Source: Alphaproteobacteria bacterium GWF2_58_20
GTDB taxonomy: Bacteria > Pseudomonadota > Alphaproteobacteria > UBA1247
Direction of reading: 5' to 3'
NCBI GenBank assembly: GCA_001768735.1
Contig: MEMB01000007.1
Coordinates: 23,612 to 87,611 of the forward strand
DNA length: 64,000 nucleotides
Both the position numbers and the translations under genes were made by a program. Shown piece by piece: positions 3,832 through 35,489 of this stretch (position 1 is its first letter; every line of letters begins with the position of its first letter). Under the pieces are notes generated by a model. It saw only the letters and a list, made by a program, of their open reading frames with translations. It did no database searches and was not told the origin of the DNA.

Positions 3832-4305
3832 ATGCAAGACCTGCTTGGAAGATATATTGGATTTGTGCTGAGCGATGTTGCGCGGTTGCTGAAGCATGAT
3901 TTTGACAGGTATGCCGCAGACCTTGGCGTGACCCGGGCGCAGTTCCGGGTTCTTGTTTGCCTGTGGTTTCAGGACGGGGTGCGGCAAAAGGAACTGGCCG
4001 ACATTCTGGAGATTTCCCCGATGACCCTTGCGCGCCTGCTGGACAGGCTGGAAACCTGGAAATGGGTTGAACGCAGGCCTGATCCTGGTGACCGCAGGGT
4101 GCGGCGGGTTCATCTCGTGGGCGATCATCCTGAATTGCGTGGCAAGATGCTCTTTTTTGCGGAAAACATCCAGGCCAAGGTTTTTGGCGGAATTTCCGAG
4201 ACGGAAAAGGAAAACATGTTTGATGTGCTTCAGCGCATGCGGGCCAATCTGGGAAATCCGGGCCTGATGCCGGACAGCATGTGTGGGGCGCGGCTTAGCG
4301 CCTGA
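3832..4305 (+). CDS. MarR family transcriptional regulator
   Basis: Winged-HTH MarR signature region (RAQFRVLVCLWFQDGVRQKELADILEISPMTLARLLDRLE ... DRRVRRVHLV). 157 aa. Confidence 0.8.
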   Translation: MQDLLGRYIGFVLSDVARLLKHDFDRYAADLGVTRAQFRVLVCLWFQDGVRQKELADILEISPMTLARLLDRLETWKWVERRPDPGDRRVRRVHLVGDHPELRGKMLFFAENIQAKVFGGISETEKENMFDVLQRMRANLGNPGLMPDSMCGARLSA

Positions 4306-5185
4306 GGAAAATGAAATCTCCACCATCATGCCCGGCTGCGGGAATGTTGGCATATTCAGGCTCTTGGCCTGCCGTGTCCATCCTGCCTGTGGCGGAGAGG
4401 TAGAGCTGGGTTCCGGTGAGAGGCCCACGGCCCTGCTGCCCGAGGGTTTCCAGAAGCGCTGAAGCAAAGACGGAATGTCCGCCCCGGCCATCGCTGACAG
4501 GTTCAAGGCCGCCAGAGGTGAGGGCAATGCGGGAGCGCTGGCGCAGTTTCTGCCCCAGGATTCCGGAAATGTCCGCAGGGTCATCTTTCACGGTCCGGGT
4601 CATGGTGCCCGCATAACAGCTATCCGAGATGACCAGGATCTTGCGGGCCGCACTCTGTTCCAGCAGGGCGGTAATGTCTGAAATGGAAATCCAGCTTTCC
4701 GGGGAATCCGCATGGGAATCGCGGGGCAGCCAGTAGCCTCCCCCGTGATCCCGTATGCCATGCCCCGCATAGTAGATGACCAGATTGTCGCTGGCTCCGG
4801 CGCTGGCGGAGAATTTCCGCAAGGCTGTCATCATCTCCTGCCGTCCGGGATCCGTAAGCAGGCGGGTTTCAAATCCATAATCCTTTTCCAGCTGTCGGGC
4901 CACCGCACGCGCATCGTTGCCGGCATTGGCCAGGCGCGGGACAGATGTGTAGGCATCAATGCCAATGGACAGGATGCGGAATGGCCCCAGCTGTTCCGGC
5001 GTCAGCGATGCCGACAGGTCAAAGGCCGGACGGGCGGCAAGGGTTCCATCTTCCCGGCCCGTCTCCCCCGTCTCCTGCCGTCCGCCGCTGCCCATCATGC
5101 CCCCAAGGCTGCCCCACTGGGCGTGCGCTGGCCATGCCACGGCCATCATGAGGAGCAAAAGCGGGACAAGTACGGGCTTTGACAT
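4295..5185 (-). CDS. secreted caspase-like cysteine peptidase (peptidase C14 / orthocaspase)
   Basis: Signal peptide LLLLMMAVAWPAHAQ. Caspase catalytic His (VIYYAGHGIRD) and Cys (ILVISDSCYAGTM) motifs are present. Convergent with MarR, 11 bp overlap. Confidence 0.75.
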   Translation of the reverse strand: MSKPVLVPLLLLMMAVAWPAHAQWGSLGGMMGSGGRQETGETGREDGTLAARPAFDLSASLTPEQLGPFRILSIGIDAYTSVPRLANAGNDARAVARQLEKDYGFETRLLTDPGRQEMMTALRKFSASAGASDNLVIYYAGHGIRDHGGGYWLPRDSHADSPESWISISDITALLEQSAARKILVISDSCYAGTMTRTVKDDPADISGILGQKLRQRSRIALTSGGLEPVSDGRGGHSVFASALLETLGQQGRGPLTGTQLYLSATGRMDTAGQEPEYANIPAAGHDGGDFIFLRR

Positions 5186-5205
5186 GATGCGCTTCCTTTC
5201 CGGCC

Positions 5206-6156
5206 TTATTTGCAGCCCGGTGTCCCCTTGATGTAGTCATTCAGGGTGCATTGTTTCTGGGGCGGCGTGGTTGGCTGGGTGGGCTGCACCGGCGGTGGTG
5301 TCGGTTTGTCCGGCTTGGTTGGCTTGTCGGGTTTTGTGGGTTTTTCGGGCGGGGGCGTGACGGTGGTGGTGCCGTTGTCCTGTCCAGCCTGTGAAACAGT
5401 CACCACATCCACTTCCACCTGCGGGGTCTGGACATAGGTCTGCCCCTGCTGGCTGACCCTGATGGGGGTCTTGGCCTGGCTCATGACGCCAATCCAGGTG
5501 GGGTTGTCGCGCGCGCCCTGTTCGTGCAGCGCGCCGAGGAAGTTTATGGTATAGCGGCCACCATTGGTATCGTCGCCCCAGGAGTATTCACCGGGGCTGG
5601 AACCGGAGGCGGCAATGAAGCCCTTGTAACCCAGGAACAGGGTACGGTAGCTGGAGGCCTTGGGCTGGCTGGCCCGCGGAATGGCCCGGTTGCGGCCCTC
5701 ATCGACAAAACTGTTGCAGGAATCGGACGTGGCGATGACGAGGCGCGCGCCCTTTGTCCGCAGCTTTGCCAGAATGTCGGAAAAATCCATGGGCTGGTCC
5801 TTGATGTACATCATGGGCCATTTGGTGGGGGTTTGCTTGGTGCGGTACCCGTGCCCGGAATAGTAGAAAAACAAGACATCGTCCTTGCCTGGACTGGCAT
5901 CGGCAATGGCGCGGGTGATGCCGGCGTTGGTCATCTGGCTTCCCACCAGCTCATTGATGTTGAGGGTCATGCCGGTGGCCTGCGCGATGTTGCGCAGTTC
6001 ATCCTTGATGTTGCCGGCATCAATAGCCACCGAAGTTCCAATGGAAGAGTCACTGGTGTCGGCGATGACGATGGCGTGCAGGCTGGCGGCGTGTGACATG
6101 CCGGACAGGCACAGGGCTACAAGCGCGGAAAGGAGGGGGCGAAGATGTCTGGTCAT
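5206..6156 (-). CDS. secreted caspase-like cysteine peptidase (C14) with C-terminal Pro/Thr-rich linker
   Basis: Signal peptide ALVALCLSGMSHAAS. His motif FFYYSGHGYRT and Cys motif LVIATSDSCNSFVD. C-terminal KPTKPDKPTKPDKPTPPPVQPTQPTTPP repeats. Confidence 0.75.
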   Translation of the reverse strand: MTRHLRPLLSALVALCLSGMSHAASLHAIVIADTSDSSIGTSVAIDAGNIKDELRNIAQATGMTLNINELVGSQMTNAGITRAIADASPGKDDVLFFYYSGHGYRTKQTPTKWPMMYIKDQPMDFSDILAKLRTKGARLVIATSDSCNSFVDEGRNRAIPRASQPKASSYRTLFLGYKGFIAASGSSPGEYSWGDDTNGGRYTINFLGALHEQGARDNPTWIGVMSQAKTPIRVSQQGQTYVQTPQVEVDVVTVSQAGQDNGTTTVTPPPEKPTKPDKPTKPDKPTPPPVQPTQPTTPPQKQCTLNDYIKGTPGCK

Positions 6157-6168
6157 GTTTAAAACCTG

Positions 6169-6660
6169 TCAGTTCTGGGGGAAAAGTTCATCAAGAAGGG
6201 ATTTCATGGTATCTGCGGCAGGATCAAAATCCTCGATGATCGAGCGGTCTTTGTCTTCAAAACGCCATAGGGCGCAGCCGGGCGCGACAAGGATGGAAAA
6301 GCTTTCCGCATTCCGCGTGAGGCGAAAGCCATATGTGGGCAGGAAAGGGCAGCGTTTGGAAGCGTCGAGGACATAGCTTGTTTCCGAAGATGCCATGAAG
6401 GCAAGCCGGTGGGCCTGTTCCGTGGAAAGGATGGGGCCGGCCTGCAAGACGGTGTGTTCCCCAATTTTCTGTGGGGCATTTTCGTCCATTTCGGCAGATA
6501 TCCTGAAACTTTCTATCCGGTCGGGCGCTTGCAGGATGCCGGAAATTTCCGGGCCAAGCAGCTTTGCGATGCTTGGCGAAAGGGCCGATGGCGCGCCCGC
6601 GCATCCCGGGAGCAGCATGCAGGAAACGAAAAGGCAGCAGAGGGAGGCATGTTTTTTCAT
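6169..6660 (-). CDS. lipoprotein, unknown function
   Basis: Start MKKHASLCCLFVSCMLLPGCAG, a lipobox-type signal. Within the same-strand gene string. Confidence 0.5.
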   Translation of the reverse strand: MKKHASLCCLFVSCMLLPGCAGAPSALSPSIAKLLGPEISGILQAPDRIESFRISAEMDENAPQKIGEHTVLQAGPILSTEQAHRLAFMASSETSYVLDASKRCPFLPTYGFRLTRNAESFSILVAPGCALWRFEDKDRSIIEDFDPAADTMKSLLDELFPQN

Positions 6661-6675
6661 GGGAGCATGAACCAC

Positions 6676-7266
6676 TTAACGGAATTTGATGCCATCGCCG
6701 CCCCGTGTTCCGGTGGCAGCGGGGGAAGCCTGCGGACGGCCCAGATTGGTGATTTCCACGCGGCGGTTGACGCCGGAGGCCGGATTTTCTGGATCCTTGA
6801 GTTTTTCGGATCCCCAGCCGACTGTGGTCAGGCGTTCGGGATCCATGTCAAACGTTTCCACAAGATAGGTCTTGACCGATATGGCGCGCGCCAGCGAGAG
6901 CCGCTTGTTCAGATCGGCCGGGCCTGTGGCGTCGGTGTGGCCGGCGATTTCGATTTTGGCGTTCGCAAGGGTTTCCGAGACCAGTGCCATTCCCAGCTCG
7001 CCCAGCTGGATGGTGGCATCCGGTGACAGTTCGGCCGAGCCGATGCGGAACCGGATGTCGAGATCAATCGCCTGCCGGATGTCCTGTCCGGGCCGGTTGA
7101 TGGGAGCGAGACTGCGGATGATGGTGTTGAGGTCGGCCACGCCCGGCTGGACATTGCGTGGGGTGGTGTCCGCCGGTGGGGTGCGGGTTTGCGTCAGGAA
7201 GCCTTGCGCGTGGGCCGCCGGGCTGGCCAGCAGGCACATCAGGGAAAAGGCAATCATGCGTTTCAT
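6676..7266 (-). CDS. OmpA-family peptidoglycan-binding protein
   Basis: Signal peptide MKRMIAFSLMCLLASPAAHAQG. OmpA C-terminal-like signature (FRIGSAELSP ... IEIAGHTDATGPADLNKRLSLARAISVKTYL ... NRRVEI). An alternative start at 7293 would give a 4-bp overlap with the upstream gene. Confidence 0.75.
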   Translation of the reverse strand: MKRMIAFSLMCLLASPAAHAQGFLTQTRTPPADTTPRNVQPGVADLNTIIRSLAPINRPGQDIRQAIDLDIRFRIGSAELSPDATIQLGELGMALVSETLANAKIEIAGHTDATGPADLNKRLSLARAISVKTYLVETFDMDPERLTTVGWGSEKLKDPENPASGVNRRVEITNLGRPQASPAATGTRGGDGIKFR

Positions 7267-7289
7267 GTCAGGTGTCCTTGTGCAAAGGG

Positions 7290-8630
7290 TCATGCGTCAT
7301 CGAACAGGTCTTCGGCTTCGTCGGGGGTGACGGTGCCGTCCTGCACGAGGGCGCGCTTTTTCTGTTCGTCGCTGGGCTGCGGAATCTTGTTTTCCTGCAT
7401 GTAGTCGCCCAGCATCGACATCCAGTTGCCGGCCTTTTCAATGTGCGAGGGCAGGCCGGTGAGTCCCAGGTCAAGGACGGTGCCCAGCTTGTCGGCATTC
7501 ATCAGCATTTCGGCAAGGTTGGGGCCCTTCCTGAACATTTTCTGGGCCATGTTGAACGCCTTGATGTCGGCATTGACGGCAAGGCCGACCCGGATCCACG
7601 AATTGACCATCTGCACGCCCCCCCTTTCAGCGGGAACCTGCGCAAGGTCCTCACGGCTGATGGTGGACTGGTCGATGACCGCAAAGGCCTTCTTGTAATC
7701 CTCGGAGGTGGCTGTGCCGGTTTCTCCGCCGCGCTTGAGCGATGCGGCCTGCGCCATGATCTGCTCGGCCAGTTCCTTGTTGCCGGTGGCCGCCTGCATG
7801 TTGGCCAGTGCCTTGAGCAGGTTGACCGTGCCGATGTTCATGTTGCGGATGAAGGCATCCGACTGGCCGCTGAAGGTCTGCGGAGCGCTGTCATCCTCGG
7901 TGAAGGCAGAAAACAGGGAGCCAAAGGCCAGGCCGTCATCTGCGGTGTTTGTGTCGCGGGCATCGTCCTGAGGGGCTGTCATGCTCCCCAGAAACGCCGC
8001 AAAGGGGTTGAAGTCACTGGAAGGGGCTGACGATCGCGATGGCATGGGCGCGTTGCGTCCGGTGCCCCTGCCGGATGTCATGGTGATGGGTTCGGATATA
8101 TGGAACTTGTCCTTGGGGGCCCAGCATTCGTTGGCGGAGATGCGTGTGCCACAATCTATCTGGTACCAGTCGCCCTGTTCCGCCACAATGTTTACGGCAT
8201 CGCCGCCGCGCAGGTCGCCTACACGTCCGCTGCCGGGCTTGTTCATCACCATCACGCTGCTGCGGGCCTTGCCGCGCAGGTTGATGTTTTTTGATGCCTG
8301 TATTTTTGGCTGGCTGAGGAGTTCACTGCTGATCCAGCCGGTTTTTCCGGAATCGAGGCAGTTGACCTGCGTCCAGCCCTTTTTCTGTCCAAGGACCGTG
8401 ACTCTCGCGCCAGCGGGAAGAATGGCAATGGCCGCATTTTCACGCCCCGGGCCGCTCCGCAGGTTGGAGGCCTTGGCAACGGTTGTGCCGGAGGCGGCAG
8501 TGCTGTTGCCAAAGTCCCCAAAGCTGGAAAGGGAGAACTGTTCATTCATTTCAGGCGTACAGGCCGCCAGAAAGCCAAGGGCGAGGAGGGCAAGAATGCG
8601 TTGCGTGTTTTTCATTGTCTGGAACCTCAC
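7290..8630 (-). CDS. lipoprotein with two bacterial SH3 (SH3b) domains and an unknown C-terminal domain
   Basis: Lipobox LALGFLAACT. Two SH3b-like segments (NLRSGPG ... VTVLGQKKGWTQV and NLRGKA ... DAVNIVAEQGDWYQI). 4-bp overlaps at both ends. Confidence 0.6.
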   Translation of the reverse strand: MRFQTMKNTQRILALLALGFLAACTPEMNEQFSLSSFGDFGNSTAASGTTVAKASNLRSGPGRENAAIAILPAGARVTVLGQKKGWTQVNCLDSGKTGWISSELLSQPKIQASKNINLRGKARSSVMVMNKPGSGRVGDLRGGDAVNIVAEQGDWYQIDCGTRISANECWAPKDKFHISEPITMTSGRGTGRNAPMPSRSSAPSSDFNPFAAFLGSMTAPQDDARDTNTADDGLAFGSLFSAFTEDDSAPQTFSGQSDAFIRNMNIGTVNLLKALANMQAATGNKELAEQIMAQAASLKRGGETGTATSEDYKKAFAVIDQSTISREDLAQVPAERGGVQMVNSWIRVGLAVNADIKAFNMAQKMFRKGPNLAEMLMNADKLGTVLDLGLTGLPSHIEKAGNWMSMLGDYMQENKIPQPSDEQKKRALVQDGTVTPDEAEDLFDDA

Positions 8631-9448
8631 AGGGCGTTGGCCTTGGCATAGGAGACAAGGCTGGTGTTGACTTTCTGCAGGAAACGCTGGGATGCCTCGG
8701 TGATGAGCCTGGTTTCCAGCTCGCGTTCAAGAATGTCGGGATTGGTTCCCGGAATGGAGGATGAAACAGAGACAACCTCGGAAGCAAGGGTTTTCTCCGT
8801 GGCGATATCCGTTTCAAGGAACAGAAGTTCAAAGGCGATGTCAAGTCCGCCTTCCTGTTTTTTTGTGAACTTGTTGTACTTGAAACCGACAAAATCCACG
8901 GCATTGACGGTAATGACAAAGCCGCGCGGCATGTTGGCCCTCGGGTCAAGGACAGTCAGGCTGTGGCCATAGGTTTCAAAATCGCGGCGCATGGTGGCAA
9001 TGAGCTTTTCATGCCGGGTGTCGCCGGGGGAACGGACCTGGAGGGAGAAGATTTCGTGCAGGCCGGTATCTTCCTTGATCATGCCCATGAGTTTGCGCAC
9101 ATCGGCGTCAATGGCGGCAAACTTGATCTCGGCGCTCACCACGCAGCGGAAGCCAATCACCTTTTTTTCCTTGCAGTTCATGTCGAAATCCGACGTGAAA
9201 TAGCGATCCCTTATGGTTTCGGGATCCCTGGCATACTTGGCCATGAAGCTGTCGCCAATGTCGCCAGCGGCCTGGTCGCCCGCTGCGGTTTCAATGGCCT
9301 GGACCAGAAGGTCCCTGAAGGCATTGTCGAGCGCCTGCTCTTCGGTTTTCCCGGTGGCAACGGTTTCCACCATTTCGGTCTTGCTTGTCTGTGCCAGGGC
9401 CGGAAAGGCGGAGGCCAGGATCATCAGGACGGCAAAAAAGCTTTTCAT
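8627..9448 (-). CDS. secreted hypothetical protein (273 aa)
   Basis: Signal peptide FFAVLMILASAFPALAQT. No motif recognised. Translationally coupled to the downstream gene. Confidence 0.5.
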   Translation of the reverse strand: MKSFFAVLMILASAFPALAQTSKTEMVETVATGKTEEQALDNAFRDLLVQAIETAAGDQAAGDIGDSFMAKYARDPETIRDRYFTSDFDMNCKEKKVIGFRCVVSAEIKFAAIDADVRKLMGMIKEDTGLHEIFSLQVRSPGDTRHEKLIATMRRDFETYGHSLTVLDPRANMPRGFVITVNAVDFVGFKYNKFTKKQEGGLDIAFELLFLETDIATEKTLASEVVSVSSSIPGTNPDILERELETRLITEASQRFLQKVNTSLVSYAKANAL

Positions 9449-9455
9449 GGGGACC

Positions 9456-10802
9456 TCAGCGGTTGGAGATGGGATCGTCGGCGATGATTTGCATCAGCGC
9501 CACAATTTTGGGGGCAAGGTCGTGTGCGGCGGCCCGAATGGCATCCATGGCGATTTCACGGGTGGTTGGGCGGATCACCCCCGTCACGACCTCAAACGCC
9601 TTGGCCCCTGAAGCGGTCGGCGTTTTGGCAGCCTTGTTCTCAATGGTCGTTGGCATCAGCTTGGGTTTTCCGCCAGGATTGGGGCGCTGGATGCGGGCCG
9701 CAAGGCCTGCGCTGAATTGCATCTGCCGTCCCAGCTTGTTTTCCGCCAGCACGGATGTGCCAGCCTTGGCGAGTCCTGCGGAAATGGTATAACCCAACAC
9801 CTGGCTTTTGCCTTTCATGCGCAGGGTTCCGGTTTCCTCAAGCGTGGAATCCACATAAAACCGCATCGGTTGTCCGTTGTCCATGCGGCCCATGCCCATG
9901 CGGTTGGCCAGCAGGCTGCCCACATTGGCCTGTGCCCATGGCGATGGCGGTGACATCAGGGCGATGCTGGAAAGGTTTTGCCGCCGCAATTCATCGGAAA
10001 CAAACTGGTGCAGGGTGTGCAGGAGTTCCAGTTTGAAGCGCTCGGTTTCCCAATTCCTGGCATCATCGCTTTCGGCACGGCCTTCGGCGCCGATGGCGCT
10101 TTCAACGAGCTGGCGGATTTCCGCAGGAGGGCCGGAGGACGGGAAATTGAAGGCGGTGAACTGAAAAACGGCATCCGCCGCATCCCGGTCCCATGTCCTG
10201 TCCGTGGCCACCCGGATGGCCAGCTCATGCAGGGTCTTTGCAAACAGGTCGCGGTAAGCAGTGGCAAGCTCGCTGCTGTTCATGGCGTGGTCGGTTACCA
10301 CGGACTGTTCGCCGACGAACAGTTTTGAGTAGATGGATTCCAGGCGGCGACGCTGGCTCATGGCCGCCTTGTCGGTAAAGATGTCCATGGTTAGCGCCAC
10401 GGAAAAGACGGTGAGGAACTGGCTTGGTGTGCCGGGGGCGGAGTAGGTCAGGGTTTCGTGTTGCGCGCGGGAAAGGTAAACGGCCACCGGATTGCCCTTC
10501 ATGGCCAAGGCGTCGGAGGCATCTGTCGGGGCCAGGACAAGATGCAGCTTTTTGACCAGATCCGTCTCCCGGGAAAGCAGGGATTGGGCCAAGGGAGTCA
10601 TTTCATCCCCGGCGAGTTCTCCGGCAACCTTGCTGACGGGCCGGACAAGGTATTTGGTCAGCTGGTTGTCGCGTCCCGGAGGCAGGTCAAAAAATGCCCC
10701 TGCGAAAAAGGTCTGTGAAATATCGGTGTTTCCGGCAGCGCGTGCCGAAAGGGGCAGGGCGAGGCTCAGGGCGAAGATCAGAGAGGCCAGACGATGTCTC
10801 AC
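9456..10802 (-). CDS. secreted hypothetical protein (448 aa), first gene of the operon
   Basis: Signal peptide LIFALSLALPLSARAAG. No motif recognised. Upstream intergenic region is divergent from the glycine-zipper lipoprotein gene. Confidence 0.5.
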   Translation of the reverse strand: MRHRLASLIFALSLALPLSARAAGNTDISQTFFAGAFFDLPPGRDNQLTKYLVRPVSKVAGELAGDEMTPLAQSLLSRETDLVKKLHLVLAPTDASDALAMKGNPVAVYLSRAQHETLTYSAPGTPSQFLTVFSVALTMDIFTDKAAMSQRRRLESIYSKLFVGEQSVVTDHAMNSSELATAYRDLFAKTLHELAIRVATDRTWDRDAADAVFQFTAFNFPSSGPPAEIRQLVESAIGAEGRAESDDARNWETERFKLELLHTLHQFVSDELRRQNLSSIALMSPPSPWAQANVGSLLANRMGMGRMDNGQPMRFYVDSTLEETGTLRMKGKSQVLGYTISAGLAKAGTSVLAENKLGRQMQFSAGLAARIQRPNPGGKPKLMPTTIENKAAKTPTASGAKAFEVVTGVIRPTTREIAMDAIRAAAHDLAPKIVALMQIIADDPISNR

Positions 10803-10934
10803 AAACAGTCTCCTTGGAAGATGGTCGCAGGTGTTTGTCCTCCCCCTTCATAACAGATGGAGAAAAAACTTTCACCCCCGTTCATATGCATGGATGAGGC
10901 TAAAAAGATCCGAGCGACAAAAAAAGAAGGAGAA

Positions 10935-11264
10935 ATGAAGATGACAAGGCATGATTTCAGGAAGGTTTCCATGGCTGTGGCGGCCTGCGCCCTGCTGGCA
11001 GGATGCGTGACCAGCGGCAACCAGCCCGGGAGCGCCATGGTTGGCGGCGTTCTGGGCGGGCTTGCCGGATCGCAGTTTGGTTCAGGAGAGGGACGGCTGG
11101 CAATGACCGCAGCCGGGGCCGCTCTCGGGGCTCTGGCCGGACAGTCTGCCGGGGAATCGCTTGACCGGGCGGATGCGGTTTATTATGGGCAGCAAGCCTA
11201 TCGCAATGAACGGCAGGACTACCGCTCCCACCACCATCCATCCAGGACATATCGGGCCTGGTAA
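10935..11264 (+). CDS. glycine-zipper outer-membrane lipoprotein (17-kDa antigen / SlyB-like)
   Basis: AAGGAGA RBS. Lipobox LLAGCVTSG. Gly-zipper GGVLGGLAGSQFGSGEG ... GAALGALAG. Confidence 0.65.
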   Translation: MKMTRHDFRKVSMAVAACALLAGCVTSGNQPGSAMVGGVLGGLAGSQFGSGEGRLAMTAAGAALGALAGQSAGESLDRADAVYYGQQAYRNERQDYRSHHHPSRTYRAW

Positions 11265-11370
11265 CAAAAAATGCGTCGGGGCTTGCCGAAAGACTCCGGC
11301 GCTGGCAGAATGAAGGGTATCCGCCACCATGGTGTGCGGATGCCCTTTTTGTTTTCACGGGATGGACATC

Positions 11371-11763
11371 ATGCTTGTCAGGATGCGTTTTTTCTTTTGT
11401 TGCGCGGTTGTTTTGGCGCTTTCGGCATGTGCGGTGCCGGATCAGGGTGCAGGCAGCATGGCGGGGTCTCCGATGGAAAATTCCGGGGGATCCGCGGTTT
11501 CGTTTCGTCATTATGCCATAGACTTTGTGGATTTTCGCGGCGATGAACTGGCCGAGGTTTCCTTCCGTCTTGAACAGCTCCCCGGTTATCGCAGCCTGCG
11601 CATTGCGGAGAGTACCGGCGCCACCTTGCGGATATGGTATGAAACCACCCTGCCTGCTCCGGTCCTGCGGAGCTTCATCAGCCGCATCATGACGTCCATG
11701 GGCCGCAATGTGAATATCCACATGGAAGGCGCTGATCATATCAGGGTGGAAACCCTTTATTAA
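11371..11763 (+). CDS. small lipoprotein, unknown function
   Basis: Signal/lipobox MRFFFCCAVVLALSACA. The start among the in-frame ATGs at 11329, 11371 and 11383 is uncertain. Confidence 0.45.
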   Translation: MLVRMRFFFCCAVVLALSACAVPDQGAGSMAGSPMENSGGSAVSFRHYAIDFVDFRGDELAEVSFRLEQLPGYRSLRIAESTGATLRIWYETTLPAPVLRSFISRIMTSMGRNVNIHMEGADHIRVETLY

Positions 11764-11778
11764 AGGAGAAGAACCGGC

Positions 11779-13104
11779 ATGAACGGGATCAGGCATTTGT
11801 GGCGACAGGGGTTTGCCTTGCTCCTGCTGGCGCTTGTCTGCCTTCCGGCGCAGGCCGCGCCTTTCGTGTCTGGGGTGCGTTTCGGCCAGCATCCCGACAA
11901 GTTGCGCATTGTTCTGGATGTGGGGGAAAAGGCCGGATTCCAGCCGGCCGTTTTTGAAGATCCGTGGCGGGTGGTTGTGTCTTTTGATGGCATGAAATCG
12001 GCCCACTTGCCGGCCACCCTTTCAGGGAAGGGGGCTTTGCCGGTGCTCCGCTATGGCGCGGATGAAAAAACCGACAGCCTGGTTTTTGAAACGCAAGGGC
12101 CAGTGCAAATCCTTGACAGTTTTTTCCTTCCCGGCGAAGGAGAAAAGTCTCCCCGCATTGTTCTGGACATTGCATCCCTTGCCAGCCTTTCCTCTGGAAA
12201 AAATGTCCTGTCTCCTGCCGCAAGGGGAGGGGAATCCACATCTTCGTCCCTTTCGCAATCCTCCGCGGGAGATGCCGCTGCGCTTTCGGCCATCATTGGC
12301 GGACTGGTGGATGGAGGAAAAGGCCAGGAGAAGACATCCCCGCCTGAACAGGAAGTGGTTCCTGCGCCTGCGGGTCAGGCCAGCATGCCTCCTCCTGCTC
12401 CGCGCGCGCGCAAGGTGGTGGTGCTGGATCCGGGGCATGGCGGACGCGATCCGGGCGCCATCGGAGCGGATGGGACATTTGAGAAAACCATTACGCTGGC
12501 CGTGGCGAAGTCCTTGCGGACGGAACTGGAGAAAAGCGGCAAATACAAGGTTCTTCTGACCCGCGAGGATGACCGGACGCTGCGCCTGTCAGACCGGGTG
12601 AAATTTGCCCGGAATGCCAAGGCCGACCTGTTCGTGTCGCTGCATGCCGATTCCATTGAGGCCGGACAGGCCTCCGGGGCTTCTTTTTATACCCTGTCCG
12701 ACAAGGCATCGGACGGGGCGACCGCGCGGCTGGTGGCCCGCGAAAATCGTGCCGACATCATTGCCGGGCTTGACCTGAGCGAGGAAAGCGCCGACGTGGC
12801 GGGCATCCTGATCGATCTTGCCATGCGCGAAACACAGAACCAGTCGCACCTGCTGTCGCGTCAGGTTGTGTCTGCCATGACGTCGGCGGGCATTACGCTG
12901 CTGGAAAACCCGCAACGTTCTGCGGGATTTGCGGTTCTCAAGGCGCCGGATGTGCCTTCGCTCCTGGTGGAAATGGGATATGTGTCCAGCCGCAAGGAAG
13001 TGGCGCTTTTAAAAAATCCCAAGCACCAGCACCGTCTGGCCGGGGCCCTGCACAACGGGCTTGATGGATATTTCTCCTGGCTGGAAGGGGTCAGTGGACG
13101 ATGA
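11779..13104 (+). CDS. amiC: N-acetylmuramoyl-L-alanine amidase with N-terminal AMIN domain
   Basis: Amidase_3 core (VVVLDPGHGGRDPGAIG ... ADLFVSLHADS) after a signal peptide and an AMIN-like domain. Confidence 0.85.
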   Translation: MNGIRHLWRQGFALLLLALVCLPAQAAPFVSGVRFGQHPDKLRIVLDVGEKAGFQPAVFEDPWRVVVSFDGMKSAHLPATLSGKGALPVLRYGADEKTDSLVFETQGPVQILDSFFLPGEGEKSPRIVLDIASLASLSSGKNVLSPAARGGESTSSSLSQSSAGDAAALSAIIGGLVDGGKGQEKTSPPEQEVVPAPAGQASMPPPAPRARKVVVLDPGHGGRDPGAIGADGTFEKTITLAVAKSLRTELEKSGKYKVLLTREDDRTLRLSDRVKFARNAKADLFVSLHADSIEAGQASGASFYTLSDKASDGATARLVARENRADIIAGLDLSEESADVAGILIDLAMRETQNQSHLLSRQVVSAMTSAGITLLENPQRSAGFAVLKAPDVPSLLVEMGYVSSRKEVALLKNPKHQHRLAGALHNGLDGYFSWLEGVSGR

Positions 13105-15539
13105 GGGTCCGGGATTTTTTCCTTTCCGCAATGTCCTGGGGATTGCTTTGCCTTATCCTGGTGCTGGCCACGGGGTGGTTTGTGCTGGCGCGTTTCACCA
13201 GGGACATTCCCGATTATCGCCAGCTTGTAGGGTACCAGCTTCCGGTGGTTACCCGGGTACATGCCGGGGATGGCCGACTCATGGTGTCCTTTGCCAAGGA
13301 AGACCGGGCCTTTGTGCCGATTTCCGCCATTCCGCCGCTGGTACGGCAGGCCTTTATTTCCGCCGAGGACAAGAATTTCTATCACCATGCGGGCGTGGAT
13401 CCGACAGGAATCCTGCGGGCGGTGGCCACCAACCTGAAGCACTTGGGCCAGGCGCGGCGTCTGGTGGGGGCTTCCACCATTACCCAGCAGGTGGCCAAGA
13501 ACTTTCTCCTGACCAGCGAAGTTTCGGTGGAGCGAAAGGTCAAGGAAGCCATTCTGGCTTTCCGTATCGAGCAGGCGCTTTCCAAGGAAACCATCCTCGA
13601 GCTTTATCTCAACAAGATTTATCTCGGGGCGGGGTCTTATGGCGTGGCAGCGGCAGCGCTGGACTATTTCGACAAGTCGCTGGATGAACTGACCATTGCC
13701 GAAATGGCCTATCTGGCGGGGTTGCCCAAGGCACCCAACAACTACAATCCTGTCCGTAACCATGATGCCGCTGTCATCCGCCGCAATTATGTGGTTGACC
13801 GCATGCGCGAGGATGGGGCGATCAGCACGGAAGCGGCAGAGGAAGCCAAGGTCCAGCCGCTGGGCGTGAAGCCACGCAAGGGGGCGGATACCGTGGAAGC
13901 GGGCTATTTCCTGGAGGAGGTCCGGCGCGAGCTGATGGATGCCTATGGGGAATATGGCCTTTATTCCGGAGGACTGTCCGTACGGACCACGCTGGATTCC
14001 CGGCTGCAGGATGTGGCCGATACGTCCCTCGCATGGGGACTTGAGGAATATGACCGTCGGCGCGGGACATGGCGCGGACCTGTGGCGCGTCTGGCTAGCC
14101 TCTATGATTGGCAGCCTGCGCTGGCCCAGATGGTGGTGCCGCCAGGAGGGGAACGTTTTGCGCTGGCCGTGGTTCTGGAAGTGCGTGCCGACCATGCGTC
14201 CATCGGCCTGGTGGACGGAAAAACCGGAAACATTCCGCTGGAGGAGGCCAAATGGGCGCGCCGCCTGAACCGGGATGGAACGCGCGGGCCTGTTCCTTCC
14301 AGCATGGACGATGTGCTTTCGCCCGGGGATATCGTGTATGTGCGGGCTGTGGAAGGCAAGCCGGAACAGTTTTCCCTGCGGCAGGTTCCACGGGTGGAGG
14401 GGGCGATTGTGGCACTGGATCCACATACCGGGCGCGTCCTTGCCATGAGCGGCGGCTGGAGCTACCGGGTCAGCCAGTACAACCGCGCCATCCAGGCCAG
14501 CCGGCAAACAGGGTCTTCCTTCAAGCCGTTTGTATTTCTGGCTGCGCTGGATGCCGGGTTGACGCCTGCAACCCTGGTGCTGGATGCGCCGCTGGAAATG
14601 GATCAGGGGCCCGGGCTGCCCATGTGGGCGCCGAAGAATTACCATGATGAATACCTGGGGGCCGTTCCCTTGCGCGTTGGTCTTGAAAAATCGCGCAACC
14701 TGATGACCGTGCGGCTGGCCCAATATACCGGCATGGAGAAGATTGTCGATTACGCCAAGCGTTTTGGCGTGGTGCGGAACATGCCGCCCCATTATGCCAT
14801 GGCCCTGGGCGCGGGGGAGAGCACGGCGCTGCGCATGGCCAGCGCTTATGCCGTGTTTGTCAATGGCGGCAAGCAGATTGTTCCCACCCTGATTGACCGG
14901 GTGCAGGACCGGAGCGGCCATACACTTTACCGGCATGACCAGCGGCCCTGCCCGAATTGTGACGATGTGTCGTGGGGGCGGCAGAATGCTCCGGAAATTC
15001 CCGACATGCGGGCGCAGATCGCCGACCCGGTGTCGGCCTACCAGATTGTTTCCATGCTGCAGGGCGTGGTGCAGCGCGGTACGGCCGCTTCGGTGGGCTG
15101 GAAGCTGAAACGTCCGCTGGCGGGCAAGACCGGCACCACGAATGACAGCCGCGATGCCTGGTTTGTCGGTTTTTCTCCCGATCTCGTCGTGGCCACCTAT
15201 ATCGGTTATGACGCCCCGGAATCCCTTGGCAAGCAGGAAACCGGTTCTTCGGTAGCCGTGCCGGTGTTTGCGCGGTTCATGGAGGCAGCGTTGGCGGATA
15301 CGCCAGCCACGCCCTTCCGGGTGCCGCCGGGGGTGCGCATGGTCAAGATCAACCATGATACGGGGGAACTGGCCAGGCCGGGAGACAAGACGGTGATCTG
15401 GGAAGCCTTCCGCAGCGGAACCGAGCCTGGCGCCGATTCGCCACAGGGTGTTCTTGGGGAAGAAGGATTCATGGTGCCGCAAAAAGGCCATCCCACCATG
15501 CGTCCGGATGCAACCACCGGTACGGGCGGGCTTTACTGA
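13101..15539 (+). CDS. mrcA: penicillin-binding protein 1A (bifunctional transglycosylase/transpeptidase)
   Basis: Glycosyltransferase motifs (ISAEDKNFYHHAGVD, ITQQVAKN) and transpeptidase motifs (SSFKP, SRN, KTGTT). 4-bp overlap with amiC. Confidence 0.9.
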   Translation: MRVRDFFLSAMSWGLLCLILVLATGWFVLARFTRDIPDYRQLVGYQLPVVTRVHAGDGRLMVSFAKEDRAFVPISAIPPLVRQAFISAEDKNFYHHAGVDPTGILRAVATNLKHLGQARRLVGASTITQQVAKNFLLTSEVSVERKVKEAILAFRIEQALSKETILELYLNKIYLGAGSYGVAAAALDYFDKSLDELTIAEMAYLAGLPKAPNNYNPVRNHDAAVIRRNYVVDRMREDGAISTEAAEEAKVQPLGVKPRKGADTVEAGYFLEEVRRELMDAYGEYGLYSGGLSVRTTLDSRLQDVADTSLAWGLEEYDRRRGTWRGPVARLASLYDWQPALAQMVVPPGGERFALAVVLEVRADHASIGLVDGKTGNIPLEEAKWARRLNRDGTRGPVPSSMDDVLSPGDIVYVRAVEGKPEQFSLRQVPRVEGAIVALDPHTGRVLAMSGGWSYRVSQYNRAIQASRQTGSSFKPFVFLAALDAGLTPATLVLDAPLEMDQGPGLPMWAPKNYHDEYLGAVPLRVGLEKSRNLMTVRLAQYTGMEKIVDYAKRFGVVRNMPPHYAMALGAGESTALRMASAYAVFVNGGKQIVPTLIDRVQDRSGHTLYRHDQRPCPNCDDVSWGRQNAPEIPDMRAQIADPVSAYQIVSMLQGVVQRGTAASVGWKLKRPLAGKTGTTNDSRDAWFVGFSPDLVVATYIGYDAPESLGKQETGSSVAVPVFARFMEAALADTPATPFRVPPGVRMVKINHDTGELARPGDKTVIWEAFRSGTEPGADSPQGVLGEEGFMVPQKGHPTMRPDATTGTGGLY

Positions 15540-35413: not shown

Positions 35414-35489
<76 letters not shown>

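What the first reader, a model, noticed from the sequence alone, without database searches (positions are those of the whole stretch)
4295..6156. Tandem paralogous secreted caspases, both with intact HG...DSC dyad; second copy carries a PT-rich (KPTKPD)n tether
Both proteins keep the catalytic His (YYAGHG / YYSGHG) and Cys (SDSCYAG / SDSCNSF) in the caspase spacing, so both are predicted active. The downstream copy ends in a Pro/Thr-rich repeat (nt ~5255-5350 encode KPTKPDKPTKPDKPTPPPVQPTQPTTPP) followed by a short Cys-containing tail (QKQCTLNDYIKGTPGCK). That layout is typical of cell-surface tethers or O-glycosylated stalks. The duplication suggests a heterodimer or a zymogen/activator pair.
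Basis: seen in the sequence. Interest (0 to 1): 0.55.

Follow-up and report, generated by a model that had tools for sequence, protein, structure and literature searches.

The report
Two exported bacterial caspase-like proteases
Two neighbouring genes of an uncultured alphaproteobacterium encode exported caspase-family proteases with intact active sites, which is fairly ordinary, but one of them belongs to a clade that is encoded across many phyla next to a small, undescribed lipoprotein that is probably its regulator.

Summary
The sequence features are real. Two minus-strand genes, A (5206-6156, 316 aa) and B (4295-5185, 296 aa), both match Pfam Peptidase_C14. Both have signal peptides, the His/Cys dyad, and an Asp two residues before the Cys, as in Arg/Lys-specific metacaspases and paracaspases.

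- The PT-rich gene (A) is the upstream gene, not the downstream one.
- A and B are not recent duplicates. They share 39% identity over 64 residues and belong to different C14 lineages.
- None of 80 other A-type loci has a B-type neighbour, so a conserved heterodimer or zymogen/activator pair is unsupported.

The PT-rich stretch is a disordered linker to a 13-residue Cys-loop. A-type proteins in general are built as caspase domain, linker, then a variable C-terminal module.

The main new result concerns gene X (6169-6660), a small lipoprotein 12 nt upstream of A. It belongs to an unannotated family of about 308 clusters. X abuts the A-type gene in 46 of 80 loci from at least five phyla and is fused to caspase domains in two proteins. 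I infer that X binds A, most likely as a membrane-anchored inhibitor; this is untested.

A and B are the last two genes of a seven-gene operon of exported envelope proteins.

The parts
5206..6156 (-). Caspase A: exported C14 peptidase, 316 aa. Layout: signal peptide (aa 1-24, nt 6085-6156); caspase domain (aa 25-254); disordered PT-rich linker (aa 255-298, nt 5263-5394); C-terminal Cys-loop tail C303-C315 (nt 5209-5259). Catalytic His102 is at nt 5851-5853, Cys147 at nt 5716-5718, and the S1-pocket candidate Asp145 at nt 5722-5724.
   Evidence: Pfam PF00656 E 1.7e-13. H102, C147 and D145 are invariant in 22 family members. AlphaFold pLDDT is 81.7, and Foldseek matches MALT1, GSU0716 and caspases-3/7/9 at E 1e-8 to 1e-6.
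4295..5185 (-). Caspase B: exported C14 peptidase, 296 aa, with no C-terminal accessory domain. His142 is at nt 4760-4762 and Cys190 at nt 4616-4618. Acidic residues are D91, D188 and E228.
   Evidence: Pfam PF00656 E 6.2e-21. The search returned 786 homologues. H142, C190, D188, D91 and E228 are invariant in 26 sequences. The family profile hits yeast metacaspase-1 at 4e-10, MALT1 at 7e-8 and GSU0716 at 3e-7.
6169..6660 (-). Lipoprotein X, 163 aa from the ATG at 6660 (lipobox LLPG-C). It founds an unannotated domain family and is the conserved partner of A-type caspases. In the numbering of the 168-aa GTG ORF, the near-invariant residues are K107, C109, P113, C134, D149 and D151 (EDFDP motif).
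   Evidence: 12-nt gap to A. 308 cluster representatives at E<=1e-3. No Pfam or NCBIfam match. AlphaFold pLDDT 90.3. No significant PDB or BFVD fold match. Adjacent to the A-type gene in 46 of 80 loci. Fused to caspase domains in P0180 and P0251.
6676..7293 (-). OmpA-family peptidoglycan-binding protein with a signal peptide (205 aa, or 196 aa from the second Met).
   Evidence: Pfam OmpA E 2.2e-18. OmpA-X-A synteny is also present in the Rhodospirillales locus L034.
7290..8630 (-). Lipoprotein with an N-terminal bacterial SH3_3 domain and a C-terminal region of about 300 aa with no family match.
   Evidence: Pfam SH3_3 E 1.9e-17. The lipobox LAAC is read. SH3_3 is a frequent C-terminal fusion partner in B-family homologues.
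8627..9448 (-). Exported protein of 273 aa with no family match.
   Evidence: No Pfam, NCBIfam, PADLOC or PDB match. The signal peptide is read.
9456..10802 (-). Exported protein of 448 aa with no family match. It is the first gene of the co-directional cluster.
   Evidence: No Pfam, NCBIfam, PADLOC or PDB match. The signal peptide is read. Gaps between the seven genes are 20 nt or less, or overlaps.
3832..4305 (+). MarR-family regulator, convergent with B. Its 3' end overlaps the 3' end of B by 11 nt. It is a possible regulator of the cluster.
   Evidence: Pfam MarR E 8.8e-17. B-MarR synteny is kept in the relatives L009/L010.

Best explanation
A and B are two Sec-exported cysteine peptidases of family C14 (metacaspase/orthocaspase type). 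They come from two different lineages of that family. They are the last two genes of a seven-gene operon whose products all carry export signals: an unknown 448-aa protein, an unknown 273-aa protein, an SH3_3 lipoprotein, an OmpA-like protein, lipoprotein X, A and B. The host is an uncultured Rhodospirillaceae-like alphaproteobacterium.

Both enzymes keep the His-Cys dyad and an Asp two residues before the Cys. They therefore most likely cleave after Arg/Lys in the periplasm or at the cell surface.

A is built as caspase domain, disordered Pro/Thr-rich linker, then a small disulfide-closed C-terminal loop. This is the minimal version of a family-wide layout of caspase domain, linker and variable targeting module.

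The functional partner of A is lipoprotein X, encoded 12 nt upstream, not B. I infer that X binds the caspase domain of A at the membrane and holds it latent or localised. The likely contact is an exposed, disulfide-braced loop carrying a near-invariant Lys-Arg/Lys that fits an acidic S1 pocket.

B is a common stand-alone periplasmic caspase homologue recruited to this operon. Its relatives often carry SH3_3 or peptidoglycan-binding domains in cis. Here such domains are supplied by separate operon genes, which suggests action at the cell wall or outer-membrane interface.

Shown: family membership, fold of A, dyad conservation, export signals (read from sequence), linker disorder, X-A co-occurrence and the fusions. 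Inferred: Arg/Lys specificity, co-transcription, X-A binding and its inhibitory sign, and the cell-wall context.
For: - Family and dyad.
- Fold of A: pLDDT 81.7. Foldseek top hits are MALT1, GSU0716 and caspases.
- Acidic S1 candidates: A D145 is invariant. B D188, D91 and E228 are invariant. B D91 aligns with the Asp of MALT1 'PLVD' and yeast metacaspase 'CIND'.
- Linker: pLDDT is below 50 over 258-297. The relative L009/L010 has a different linker (TN repeats plus poly-Pro) but a conserved tail, KKCSMNDYLRNAPGCRR.
- C-terminal modules in other A-type proteins include DM9, a Cys-bracketed helical domain, PPC-like repeats, a LamG-like region and a thioredoxin-like region (DM9 Pfam hit).
- X-A module: the X profile hits an ORF in 46 of 80 A-type loci. 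The hit always abuts the A gene on the same strand and never lies elsewhere in the +-6 kb flanks.
- By group, with X upstream: Spirochaetota 15/17, Alphaproteobacteria 7/8, SAR324 2/2, Gammaproteobacteria 2/2. With X downstream: Cytophagales 14/14.
- From the X side, 3 of 5 sampled X homologues are followed by a C14 gene within 16-149 nt.
- Fusions: P0180 is a canonical C14 domain plus X. P0251 is an A-type domain with His replaced by Tyr, a linker, then X.
- X structure: pLDDT 90.3, with K107 in the coil 100-114 next to C109. The Leptospiraceae X lost C109 and C134 together but kept K-R, which argues for a C109-C134 disulfide.
- Operon: all seven N-termini read as signal peptides or lipoboxes, and gaps are 20 nt or less.
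Against: - No biochemical data exist for either lineage, and specificity is inferred from a few residues.
- For A, the second acidic position (D46) is only partly conserved (D, N or E).
X resembles no known inhibitor.
- In the fusions, X sits where targeting modules sit in other A-type proteins. It could therefore be a targeting or anchor domain rather than an inhibitor.
- 22 of 23 Chitinophagales/Sphingobacteriales A-type loci show no X.
- Two sampled X homologues are not next to a caspase.
- Co-transcription is inferred from spacing only. The promoter/terminator scan was uninformative.
Confidence: 0.6

Rival explanations
1. A and B arose by tandem duplication. They work together as a heterodimer, or as a zymogen and its activator.
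For: The two genes are adjacent, co-directional and 20 nt apart. Both have intact dyads. The A-B-MarR arrangement is kept in one related organism, where the B homologue is 57% identical. Both have Arg/Lys-rich loops after the catalytic Cys that an Arg/Lys-specific partner could cleave (read from sequence).
Against: A and B share only 39% identity over 64 residues. The nearest relatives of A are in Leptospirales, SAR324 and other Alphaproteobacteria, not in the B family. None of 80 A-type loci has a B-family neighbour; only two have weak hits to other C14 genes, at 42 and 24 bits. B relatives occur alone.
Confidence: 0.12
2. X is a positive partner of A, not an inhibitor. It could be a membrane anchor or scaffold that positions A. 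Alternatively it could be the physiological substrate, or an activator cleaved at its conserved Lys-Arg loop.
For: The co-occurrence and fusion evidence is the same as for the best explanation. X is a lipoprotein and A is soluble. In the fusions, X occupies the position of targeting modules. The conserved dibasic loop could be a cleavage site.
Against: A fusion of X with a His-to-Tyr pseudo-caspase (P0251) suggests the interaction does not need catalysis, which argues against a pure substrate role. Otherwise nothing here separates this reading from the inhibitor reading.
Confidence: 0.25
3. A is a secreted antagonistic effector, a protease aimed at other cells through its variable C-terminal module. 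X is the producer's periplasmic immunity lipoprotein.
For: The pairing is a tight bicistronic protease plus small lipoprotein, and gene order flips between phyla. A-type proteins carry hypervariable C-terminal binding modules, including the lectin-type DM9 domain. Chlamydiota have tandem arrays of up to five A-type genes with one X (L041). One X homologue lies next to a VgrG-like gene.
Against: A has a classical Sec signal peptide, and no dedicated secretion system lies nearby in the window. In this window the C-terminal module is only a 13-residue loop. The operon neighbours are housekeeping-type envelope proteins. No mobile-element or polymorphic-toxin features were seen.
Confidence: 0.12
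4. One or both proteins are non-catalytic caspase-fold scaffolds (pseudo-proteases), or catalyse transpeptidation rather than hydrolysis.
For: Pseudo-orthocaspases are known (PMC6426788). One A-type fusion (P0251) has His replaced by Tyr. Clan CD includes transamidases (own knowledge).
Against: His, Cys and the flanking Gly/Asp are invariant in both families, including the window proteins.
Confidence: 0.05

Closest known systems
Bacterial orthocaspases / metacaspase-like C14 peptidases (e.g. Microcystis MaOC1; Geobacter GSU0716, PDB 3BIJ)
   Same: Both proteins have the p20-type caspase domain, the His-Cys dyad and an Asp at -2 of the Cys, and both occur in bacteria. GSU0716 is among the best sequence and fold matches. 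Orthocaspases cleave after basic residues (PMC6426788 abstract).
   Different: A and B are Sec-exported. A belongs to a separate clade with a short beta1-alpha1 loop (ADTxDxxIG), extra invariant residues (H27, D33, R105, R138, N148) and a dedicated lipoprotein partner. No member of either clade has been characterised.
MALT1 paracaspase and eukaryotic metacaspases (Yca1, AtMC4, AtMC9)
   Same: The fold and catalytic motifs match. B has counterparts of the S1 Asp after beta1 and of the Asp at -2 of the Cys.
   Different: Those proteins are eukaryotic and cytosolic with other accessory domains. Sequence identity is only 11-18% in the fold alignments.
Multi-metacaspase operons and OmpA-containing metacaspase operons surveyed by Asplund-Samuelsson et al. 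2012 (PMC3501461)
   Same: That survey reports 20 operons with more than one metacaspase (including in Alphaproteobacteria), OmpA in 14 metacaspase operons, Lactamase_B as a frequent neighbour, and N-terminal helices that may be signal peptides. The window cluster fits this description.
   Different: The survey relied on Pfam domains. A partner with no Pfam match, such as X, could not be recognised, and no X-like partner is mentioned.
Secreted protease plus adjacent cognate inhibitor pairs (Listeria metzincin with a TIMP-like lipoprotein, PMC8235301; staphopain-staphostatin and AprA-AprI from own knowledge)
   Same: An exported protease and a small exported protein or lipoprotein are encoded side by side on the same strand. 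The pairing is conserved across taxa.
   Different: The protease class here is clan CD, C14. X has no sequence or fold similarity to any known inhibitor. Inhibition is only inferred.
EACC1-associated caspases of NTP-dependent conflict systems (NCBIfam NF047832)
   Same: This is the best NCBIfam hit for B (81.7 bits).
   Different: The score is well below the cut-off of 140 bits, and A scores 23 bits. Those proteins are cytoplasmic components of conflict systems; A and B carry signal peptides and have no such neighbours.

Membership tests
Peptidase family C14 (Pfam PF00656, clan CD) | Match to the family profile above the curated threshold | tested here: met
   A scores 51.3 bits and B 75.6 bits against a cut-off of 21.4.
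Peptidase family C14 (Pfam PF00656, clan CD) | Catalytic His (…SGHG, end of a beta-strand) and Cys (D-x-C, end of the next core strand) conserved and aligned to those of solved members | tested here: met
   H102/C147 and H142/C190 are invariant in their families. They align to the MALT1, GSU0716, AtMC9 and Yca1 motifs. In the model of A, the His follows strand 94-101 and the Cys follows strand 139-146.
Peptidase family C14 (Pfam PF00656, clan CD) | Caspase-haemoglobinase fold | tested here: met
   For A, Foldseek probability is 1.00 to MALT1, GSU0716 and caspases-3/7/9 at E 1e-8 to 1e-6. B was not modelled; it is supported by sequence only.
Peptidase family C14 (Pfam PF00656, clan CD) | Peptidase activity | not testable with these tools
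   This requires enzyme assays.
Arg/Lys-specific C14B type (metacaspase, paracaspase, orthocaspase) | Acidic S1 pocket: Asp at -2 of the catalytic Cys, plus an Asp after beta1 | tested here: inconclusive
   The -2 Asp is invariant in both (A D145, B D188). The post-beta1 Asp is present and aligned in B (D91). In A the candidate D46 is D, N or E across the family.
   39% identity over 64 of about 300 residues. The two have separate homologue sets. No B-type gene lies beside A-type genes elsewhere.
EACC1-associated caspase (NCBIfam NF047832) | Score above the curated cut-off of 140 bits | tested here: not met
   B scores 81.7 bits and A 23 bits.
Protease plus cognate inhibitor gene pair (functional class, for X-A) | Conserved adjacency and co-orientation of the two genes across taxa | tested here: met
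   46 of 80 loci, always abutting on the same strand, in at least five phyla. 3 of 5 sampled from the X side. Two gene fusions.
Protease plus cognate inhibitor gene pair (functional class, for X-A) | Physical binding and inhibition of the protease by the partner | not testable with these tools
Biochemistry is needed.
Protease plus cognate inhibitor gene pair (functional class, for X-A) | Homology or fold similarity of X to a known inhibitor family | tested here: not met
   No Pfam or NCBIfam match for 49 members. The best PDB fold hit is an uncharacterised Clostridium lipoprotein, 4r7r, at E 2.7e-3. BFVD gave nothing.

The most novel reading that the evidence does not exclude
Lipoprotein X founds a new, widespread family of dedicated protein inhibitors or latency factors for caspase-fold (C14) peptidases in bacteria. 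There are about 300 clusters at 50% identity, in Spirochaetota, Alpha- and Gammaproteobacteria, SAR324, Chlamydiota and Bacteroidota. In this reading X docks a disulfide-braced Lys-Arg loop into the protease S1 pocket. The X-A pair would then be a self-contained, horizontally mobile 'exported caspase plus guard' module, possibly used as an effector-immunity pair.
Probability: 0.3. Interest if true: 0.65.

Novelty: new variant of a known kind. Interest (0 to 1): 0.4.

Why it matters
Bacterial caspase homologues are numerous. Almost none has a known substrate, regulator or cellular role, and most discussion has centred on cytoplasmic 'programmed cell death'.

The two proteins flagged here are, taken alone, ordinary exported members of that family. 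Their value lies in the context.
- One of them defines a clade that is genetically locked to a small lipoprotein of unknown fold across several phyla. The lipoprotein domain is also found fused to caspase domains.
- That gives a concrete two-protein system to test: does X bind, inhibit or anchor A, and what is A's specificity?
- It also gives a handle for annotating about 300 clusters of 'hypothetical' lipoproteins.

If X proves to be an inhibitor, it would be, as far as the literature I could search shows, the first dedicated bacterial inhibitor family for C14 peptidases.

Tried and rejected
- The word-index homologue search for X returned only X itself. The exhaustive HMMER search was needed.
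The X-to-caspase direction was therefore sampled with five contig look-ups instead.
- The look-up of the Magnetofaba B homologue found no record.
- PADLOC gave only a generic 'caspase' hit, and nothing for X or the other operon genes. I rejected a defence-system reading on that basis, and because all products are exported.
- Membership of the EACC1-type caspases was rejected.
- The promoter/terminator scan was uninformative: 0 promoter-like sites, and terminator-like sites no more frequent than in shuffles.
- PDB sequence searches for the 448-aa and 273-aa proteins found nothing.
- Foldseek of X against PDB and BFVD gave no significant match.
- Strain-level length variation of the KPTKPD repeat: the seven contigs recovered were found by exact match to protein A, so they cannot show variation. 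A is not in the 90% cluster table, so variant alleles could not be listed. Only a more distant relative shows a different linker.
- tRNA and Rfam scans of the window found only one tRNA-Thr, far from the locus.
Full report
**What is in the sequence**

On the minus strand there are two adjacent ORFs: A (5206..6156, 316 aa) and B (4295..5185, 296 aa). They are separated by 20 nt containing a Shine-Dalgarno-like GGAAAGGAAG.

Both exceed the Pfam Peptidase_C14 gathering score. A scores 51.3 bits (E 1.7e-13) and B scores 75.6 bits (E 6.2e-21).

- A has YYSGHG (H102) and SDSC (C147).
- B has YYAGHG (H142) and SDSC (C190).
- A carries the Pro/Thr-rich stretch at aa 255-298, with 14 Pro and 10 Thr in 44 residues.
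- A ends in QKQCTLNDYIKGTPGCK.

Because the genes are on the minus strand, the PT-rich protein is the first gene of the pair, not the 'downstream/second' one.

The KPTKPD unit occurs about 2.5 times. Its copies use different synonymous codons (AAACCCACA, AAACCCGAC, AAGCCAACC, AAGCCGGAC, AAACCGACA), so it is not a clean slippage-prone DNA repeat (TRF score 38).

**Source organism**

The exact proteins occur on contigs of MAGs named 'Alphaproteobacteria bacterium GWF2_58_20' and 'Rhodospirillaceae bacterium' (GCA_003485165.1), and in several metagenomes.

**Are they caspase-fold enzymes with the dyad in the right place?**

Yes.
- In a 22-member alignment of A's family, H102, C147 and D145 are invariant.
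- In a 26-member alignment of B's family, H142, C190, D188, D91 and E228 are invariant.
- B's motifs align with MALT1 (YYAGHG, LDMC) and GSU0716.
- B's family profile hits yeast metacaspase-1 (4e-10), MALT1 (7e-8), GSU0716 (3e-7) and AtMC4 (4.5e-7).
- A's His motif aligns to AtMC9.
- A single BLAST alignment puts A's GHG and DSC opposite B's.
- The AlphaFold model of A has mean pLDDT 81.7, with the His and Cys at the C-terminal ends of consecutive core strands. It matches MALT1, GSU0716 and caspases-3/7/9 with Foldseek probability 1.0.

**Specificity (inferred)**

Both proteins have Asp two residues before the catalytic Cys. From established knowledge, this is the position of an S1-pocket Asp in MALT1 and metacaspases, and of Gln in Asp-specific caspases.

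B also has the Asp after strand beta1. It aligns with MALT1 'PLVD' and yeast 'CIND'. In A the corresponding candidate, D46, is only partly conserved.

I therefore predict Arg/Lys specificity, more firmly for B than for A. Both have Arg/Lys-rich, low-confidence loops just after the Cys (A residues 149-166, pLDDT about 57). These are plausible autoprocessing sites.

**Not a recent duplication**

- A and B align over only 64 residues at 39% identity.
- In the word-index search, A's relatives are few and at most 41% identical. They come from Leptospiraceae and similar groups.
- A profile-guided scan of one genome per species found 410 relatives of A. These are in Spirochaetota, SAR324, Alpha- and Gammaproteobacteria, Chlamydiota and Bacteroidota.
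- B belongs to a large family (786 hits). Its members commonly carry C-terminal SH3_3, PG_binding_1, TPR or other modules.
- In the 80 A-type loci fetched, every tblastn hit of B falls on the A-type gene itself.
- With family profiles, only two neighbouring ORFs score better as 'B-like', and only weakly, at 42 and 24 bits.
- A close B homologue sits alone among unrelated genes.
- The A-B-MarR arrangement recurs only in one relative, L009/L010, whose B homologue is 57% identical.

A conserved heterodimer or zymogen/activator relationship is therefore unsupported, though it is not excluded for this lineage.

**The linker and tail**

The PT-rich region is predicted to be disordered, with pLDDT below 50 over 258-270 and 279-297.

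In L009/L010 the equivalent protein has a quite different linker (…TNTNTNTNSNTN…TPTPPPPPPPPPPPPP) followed by a clearly homologous tail, KKCSMNDYLRNAPGCRR. The linker is evolutionarily plastic, while the 13-residue Cys-bracketed loop is conserved.

Other A-type proteins carry other modules at this position:
- two DM9 repeats (Alphaproteobacteria);
- a helical domain of about 110 residues bracketed by a first and a near-terminal Cys (Leptospirales, Turneriella);
- PQ-rich tails ending in QWxPIN (Rhodospirillales);
- Cys-rich regions, repeated domains, and LamG-like and thioredoxin-like regions.

No strain-level length variation could be shown. The seven contigs recovered were found by exact match to A, so they cannot reveal variants, and A is absent from the cluster table.

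**The unexpected part: lipoprotein X**

Twelve nucleotides upstream of A lies a 163-aa lipoprotein gene, X (6169..6660; lipobox LLPG-C).

Homologues of X precede A-type genes in an alphaproteobacterial contig (L005) and in Leptospiraceae (L006).

An exhaustive HMMER search found 308 cluster representatives at E<=1e-3. None of 49 members matches Pfam or NCBIfam.

A profile of X hits an ORF in 46 of the 80 A-type loci. In every case the hit abuts the A-type gene on the same strand, and it never lies elsewhere in the +-6 kb flanks. The breakdown by group is:

| Group | X upstream | X downstream | No X found |
|---|---|---|---|
| Spirochaetota | 15 | 0 | 2 |
| Alphaproteobacteria | 7 | 0 | 1 |
| SAR324 | 2 | 0 | 0 |
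| Gammaproteobacteria | 2 | 0 | 0 |
| Cytophagales | 0 | 14 | 0 |
| Chlamydiota | 1 | 1 | 1 |
| Chitinophagales/Sphingobacteriales | 0 | 1 | 22 |
| Other Bacteroidota | 0 | 1 | 5 |
| Unclassified | 2 | 0 | 3 |

From the X side, three of five sampled X homologues are followed by a Peptidase_C14 gene within 16-149 nt. The other two lie next to a DUF1579 gene and a VgrG-like gene.

Two proteins fuse the domains:
- P0180 is signal peptide, canonical C14 domain, then X.
- P0251 is signal peptide, an A-type domain whose catalytic His is replaced by Tyr, a long linker, then X.

The AlphaFold model of X is very confident (pLDDT 90.3; alpha+beta). It has only a marginal PDB match, to an uncharacterised Clostridium lipoprotein (4r7r, E 2.7e-3), and no BFVD match.

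The near-invariant residues are K107 (usually followed by R or K), C109, P113, C134 and the EDFDP motif. K107 lies in a long coil (residues 100-114) next to C109.

In Leptospiraceae both Cys are lost together while K-R is retained. This argues that C109 and C134 form a disulfide.

**Mechanistic reading (inference)**

X and A interact physically in the periplasm. My preferred model is that X is a membrane-anchored latency factor or inhibitor. It would present a disulfide-braced Lys-Arg loop to the acidic S1 pocket of A, in the manner of canonical protease inhibitors.

The fusion with a catalytically dead A-type domain suggests that binding matters more than turnover. However, the same data fit an anchor, an activator or a substrate, and partly fit an effector-immunity pair. 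These rivals are listed with probabilities in the report sections.

**Operon context**

Seven co-directional genes span 4295-10802, with gaps of 20 nt or less, or overlaps:
- a 448-aa unknown protein;
- a 273-aa unknown protein;
- an SH3_3 lipoprotein;
- an OmpA-like protein;
- X;
- A;
- B.

All have signal peptides or lipoboxes by inspection.

OmpA-X-A synteny recurs in a Rhodospirillales MAG, L034. The three upstream genes are not found next to other A-type genes.

B lacks the SH3_3 or peptidoglycan-binding domains that many of its relatives carry in cis. The operon supplies such domains in trans. This hints at action at the wall or outer-membrane interface, but the evidence is weak.

A MarR gene converges on B and overlaps its 3' end by 11 nt. 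Cell-wall genes (Amidase_3, PBP1A) lie just beyond the operon.

**Comparison with what is known**

Exported or membrane-associated prokaryotic caspase homologues are already documented in the 2012 survey (PMC3501461). So are operons with two or three metacaspases, and OmpA or Lactamase_B neighbours. The tandem caspases as such are therefore new members of a known kind.

I found no paper describing the X family or its linkage to caspases. The library searched is limited to open-access texts.

The closest functional analogies are secreted protease plus adjacent inhibitor or lipoprotein pairs, such as the Listeria metzincin/TIMP-like pair (PMC8235301). X shows no homology to any of these.

**Verdict**

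- The active-site and tether interpretations hold.
- The heterodimer/activator idea lacks comparative support.
- The more interesting feature of the locus is the conserved, uncharacterised X-A module.

Interest is moderate (0.4). Novelty: a new variant of a known kind.

Noticed in passing
window 7290-10802 (-): Three exported proteins head the same co-directional cluster: 448 aa, 273 aa, and a 446-aa lipoprotein with an N-terminal SH3_3 domain and an unassigned C-terminal region of about 300 aa. The first two have no Pfam, NCBIfam, PADLOC or PDB-sequence match. They are not found beside A-type caspases elsewhere.
   Followed up: partly
window 3832-4305 (+): A MarR-family regulator converges on caspase B, and the two 3' ends overlap by 11 nt. 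The same B-MarR arrangement occurs in the relatives L009/L010. It may regulate the cluster, or there may be antisense interference.
   Followed up: no
window 10857-15539: A cell-envelope neighbourhood lies next to the operon. It includes a glycine-zipper lipoprotein (10857-11264, +) and an Amidase_3 (AmiC-like) gene (11779-13104, +). A class A PBP (Transgly/Transpeptidase) follows at about 13101-15539, by correspondence with L001.
   Followed up: no
L041 5935-10800 (Parachlamydiales MAG); also L083, L053, L033: These loci carry tandem arrays of A-type caspase genes. L041 has five copies, with a single X gene after the first. L083 and L053 have three copies each and L033 has two. This points to lineage-specific expansions of the exported caspase.
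   Followed up: no
P0251 (540 aa) and P0180 (430 aa), from the representative library: These are natural fusions of a caspase domain with the X domain. In P0251 the catalytic His is replaced by Tyr (FFHWTGYG) while the Cys is kept, so it is a pseudo-caspase tethered to X by a low-complexity linker of about 170 residues.
   Followed up: partly
L006-L008 11140-11946 (Leptospirales): The A-type caspase gene overlaps a downstream Lactamase_B (metallo-hydrolase) gene by 13 nt. Lactamase_B was also noted as a frequent metacaspase operon neighbour in PMC3501461.
   Followed up: no
L095 486-2521; L093 4001-6510: These X-family genes are not next to a caspase. One lies 294 nt upstream of a VgrG-like (Phage_GPD) gene. 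A three-repeat X protein (460 aa) is followed by a DUF1579 protein. The X domain may therefore have partners other than C14 peptidases.
   Followed up: partly
window 5206-6156 (-): The exact sequence of protein A is absent from the 15-billion-protein cluster table, and its precomputed Pfam field is empty in the contig look-up. A direct hmmscan nevertheless gives Peptidase_C14 at E 1.7e-13. Public annotation probably leaves this gene as 'hypothetical'.
   Followed up: partly
window 35414-35489 (+): A single tRNA-Thr (TGT) is the only RNA gene detected in the window by ARAGORN and Rfam.
   Followed up: no
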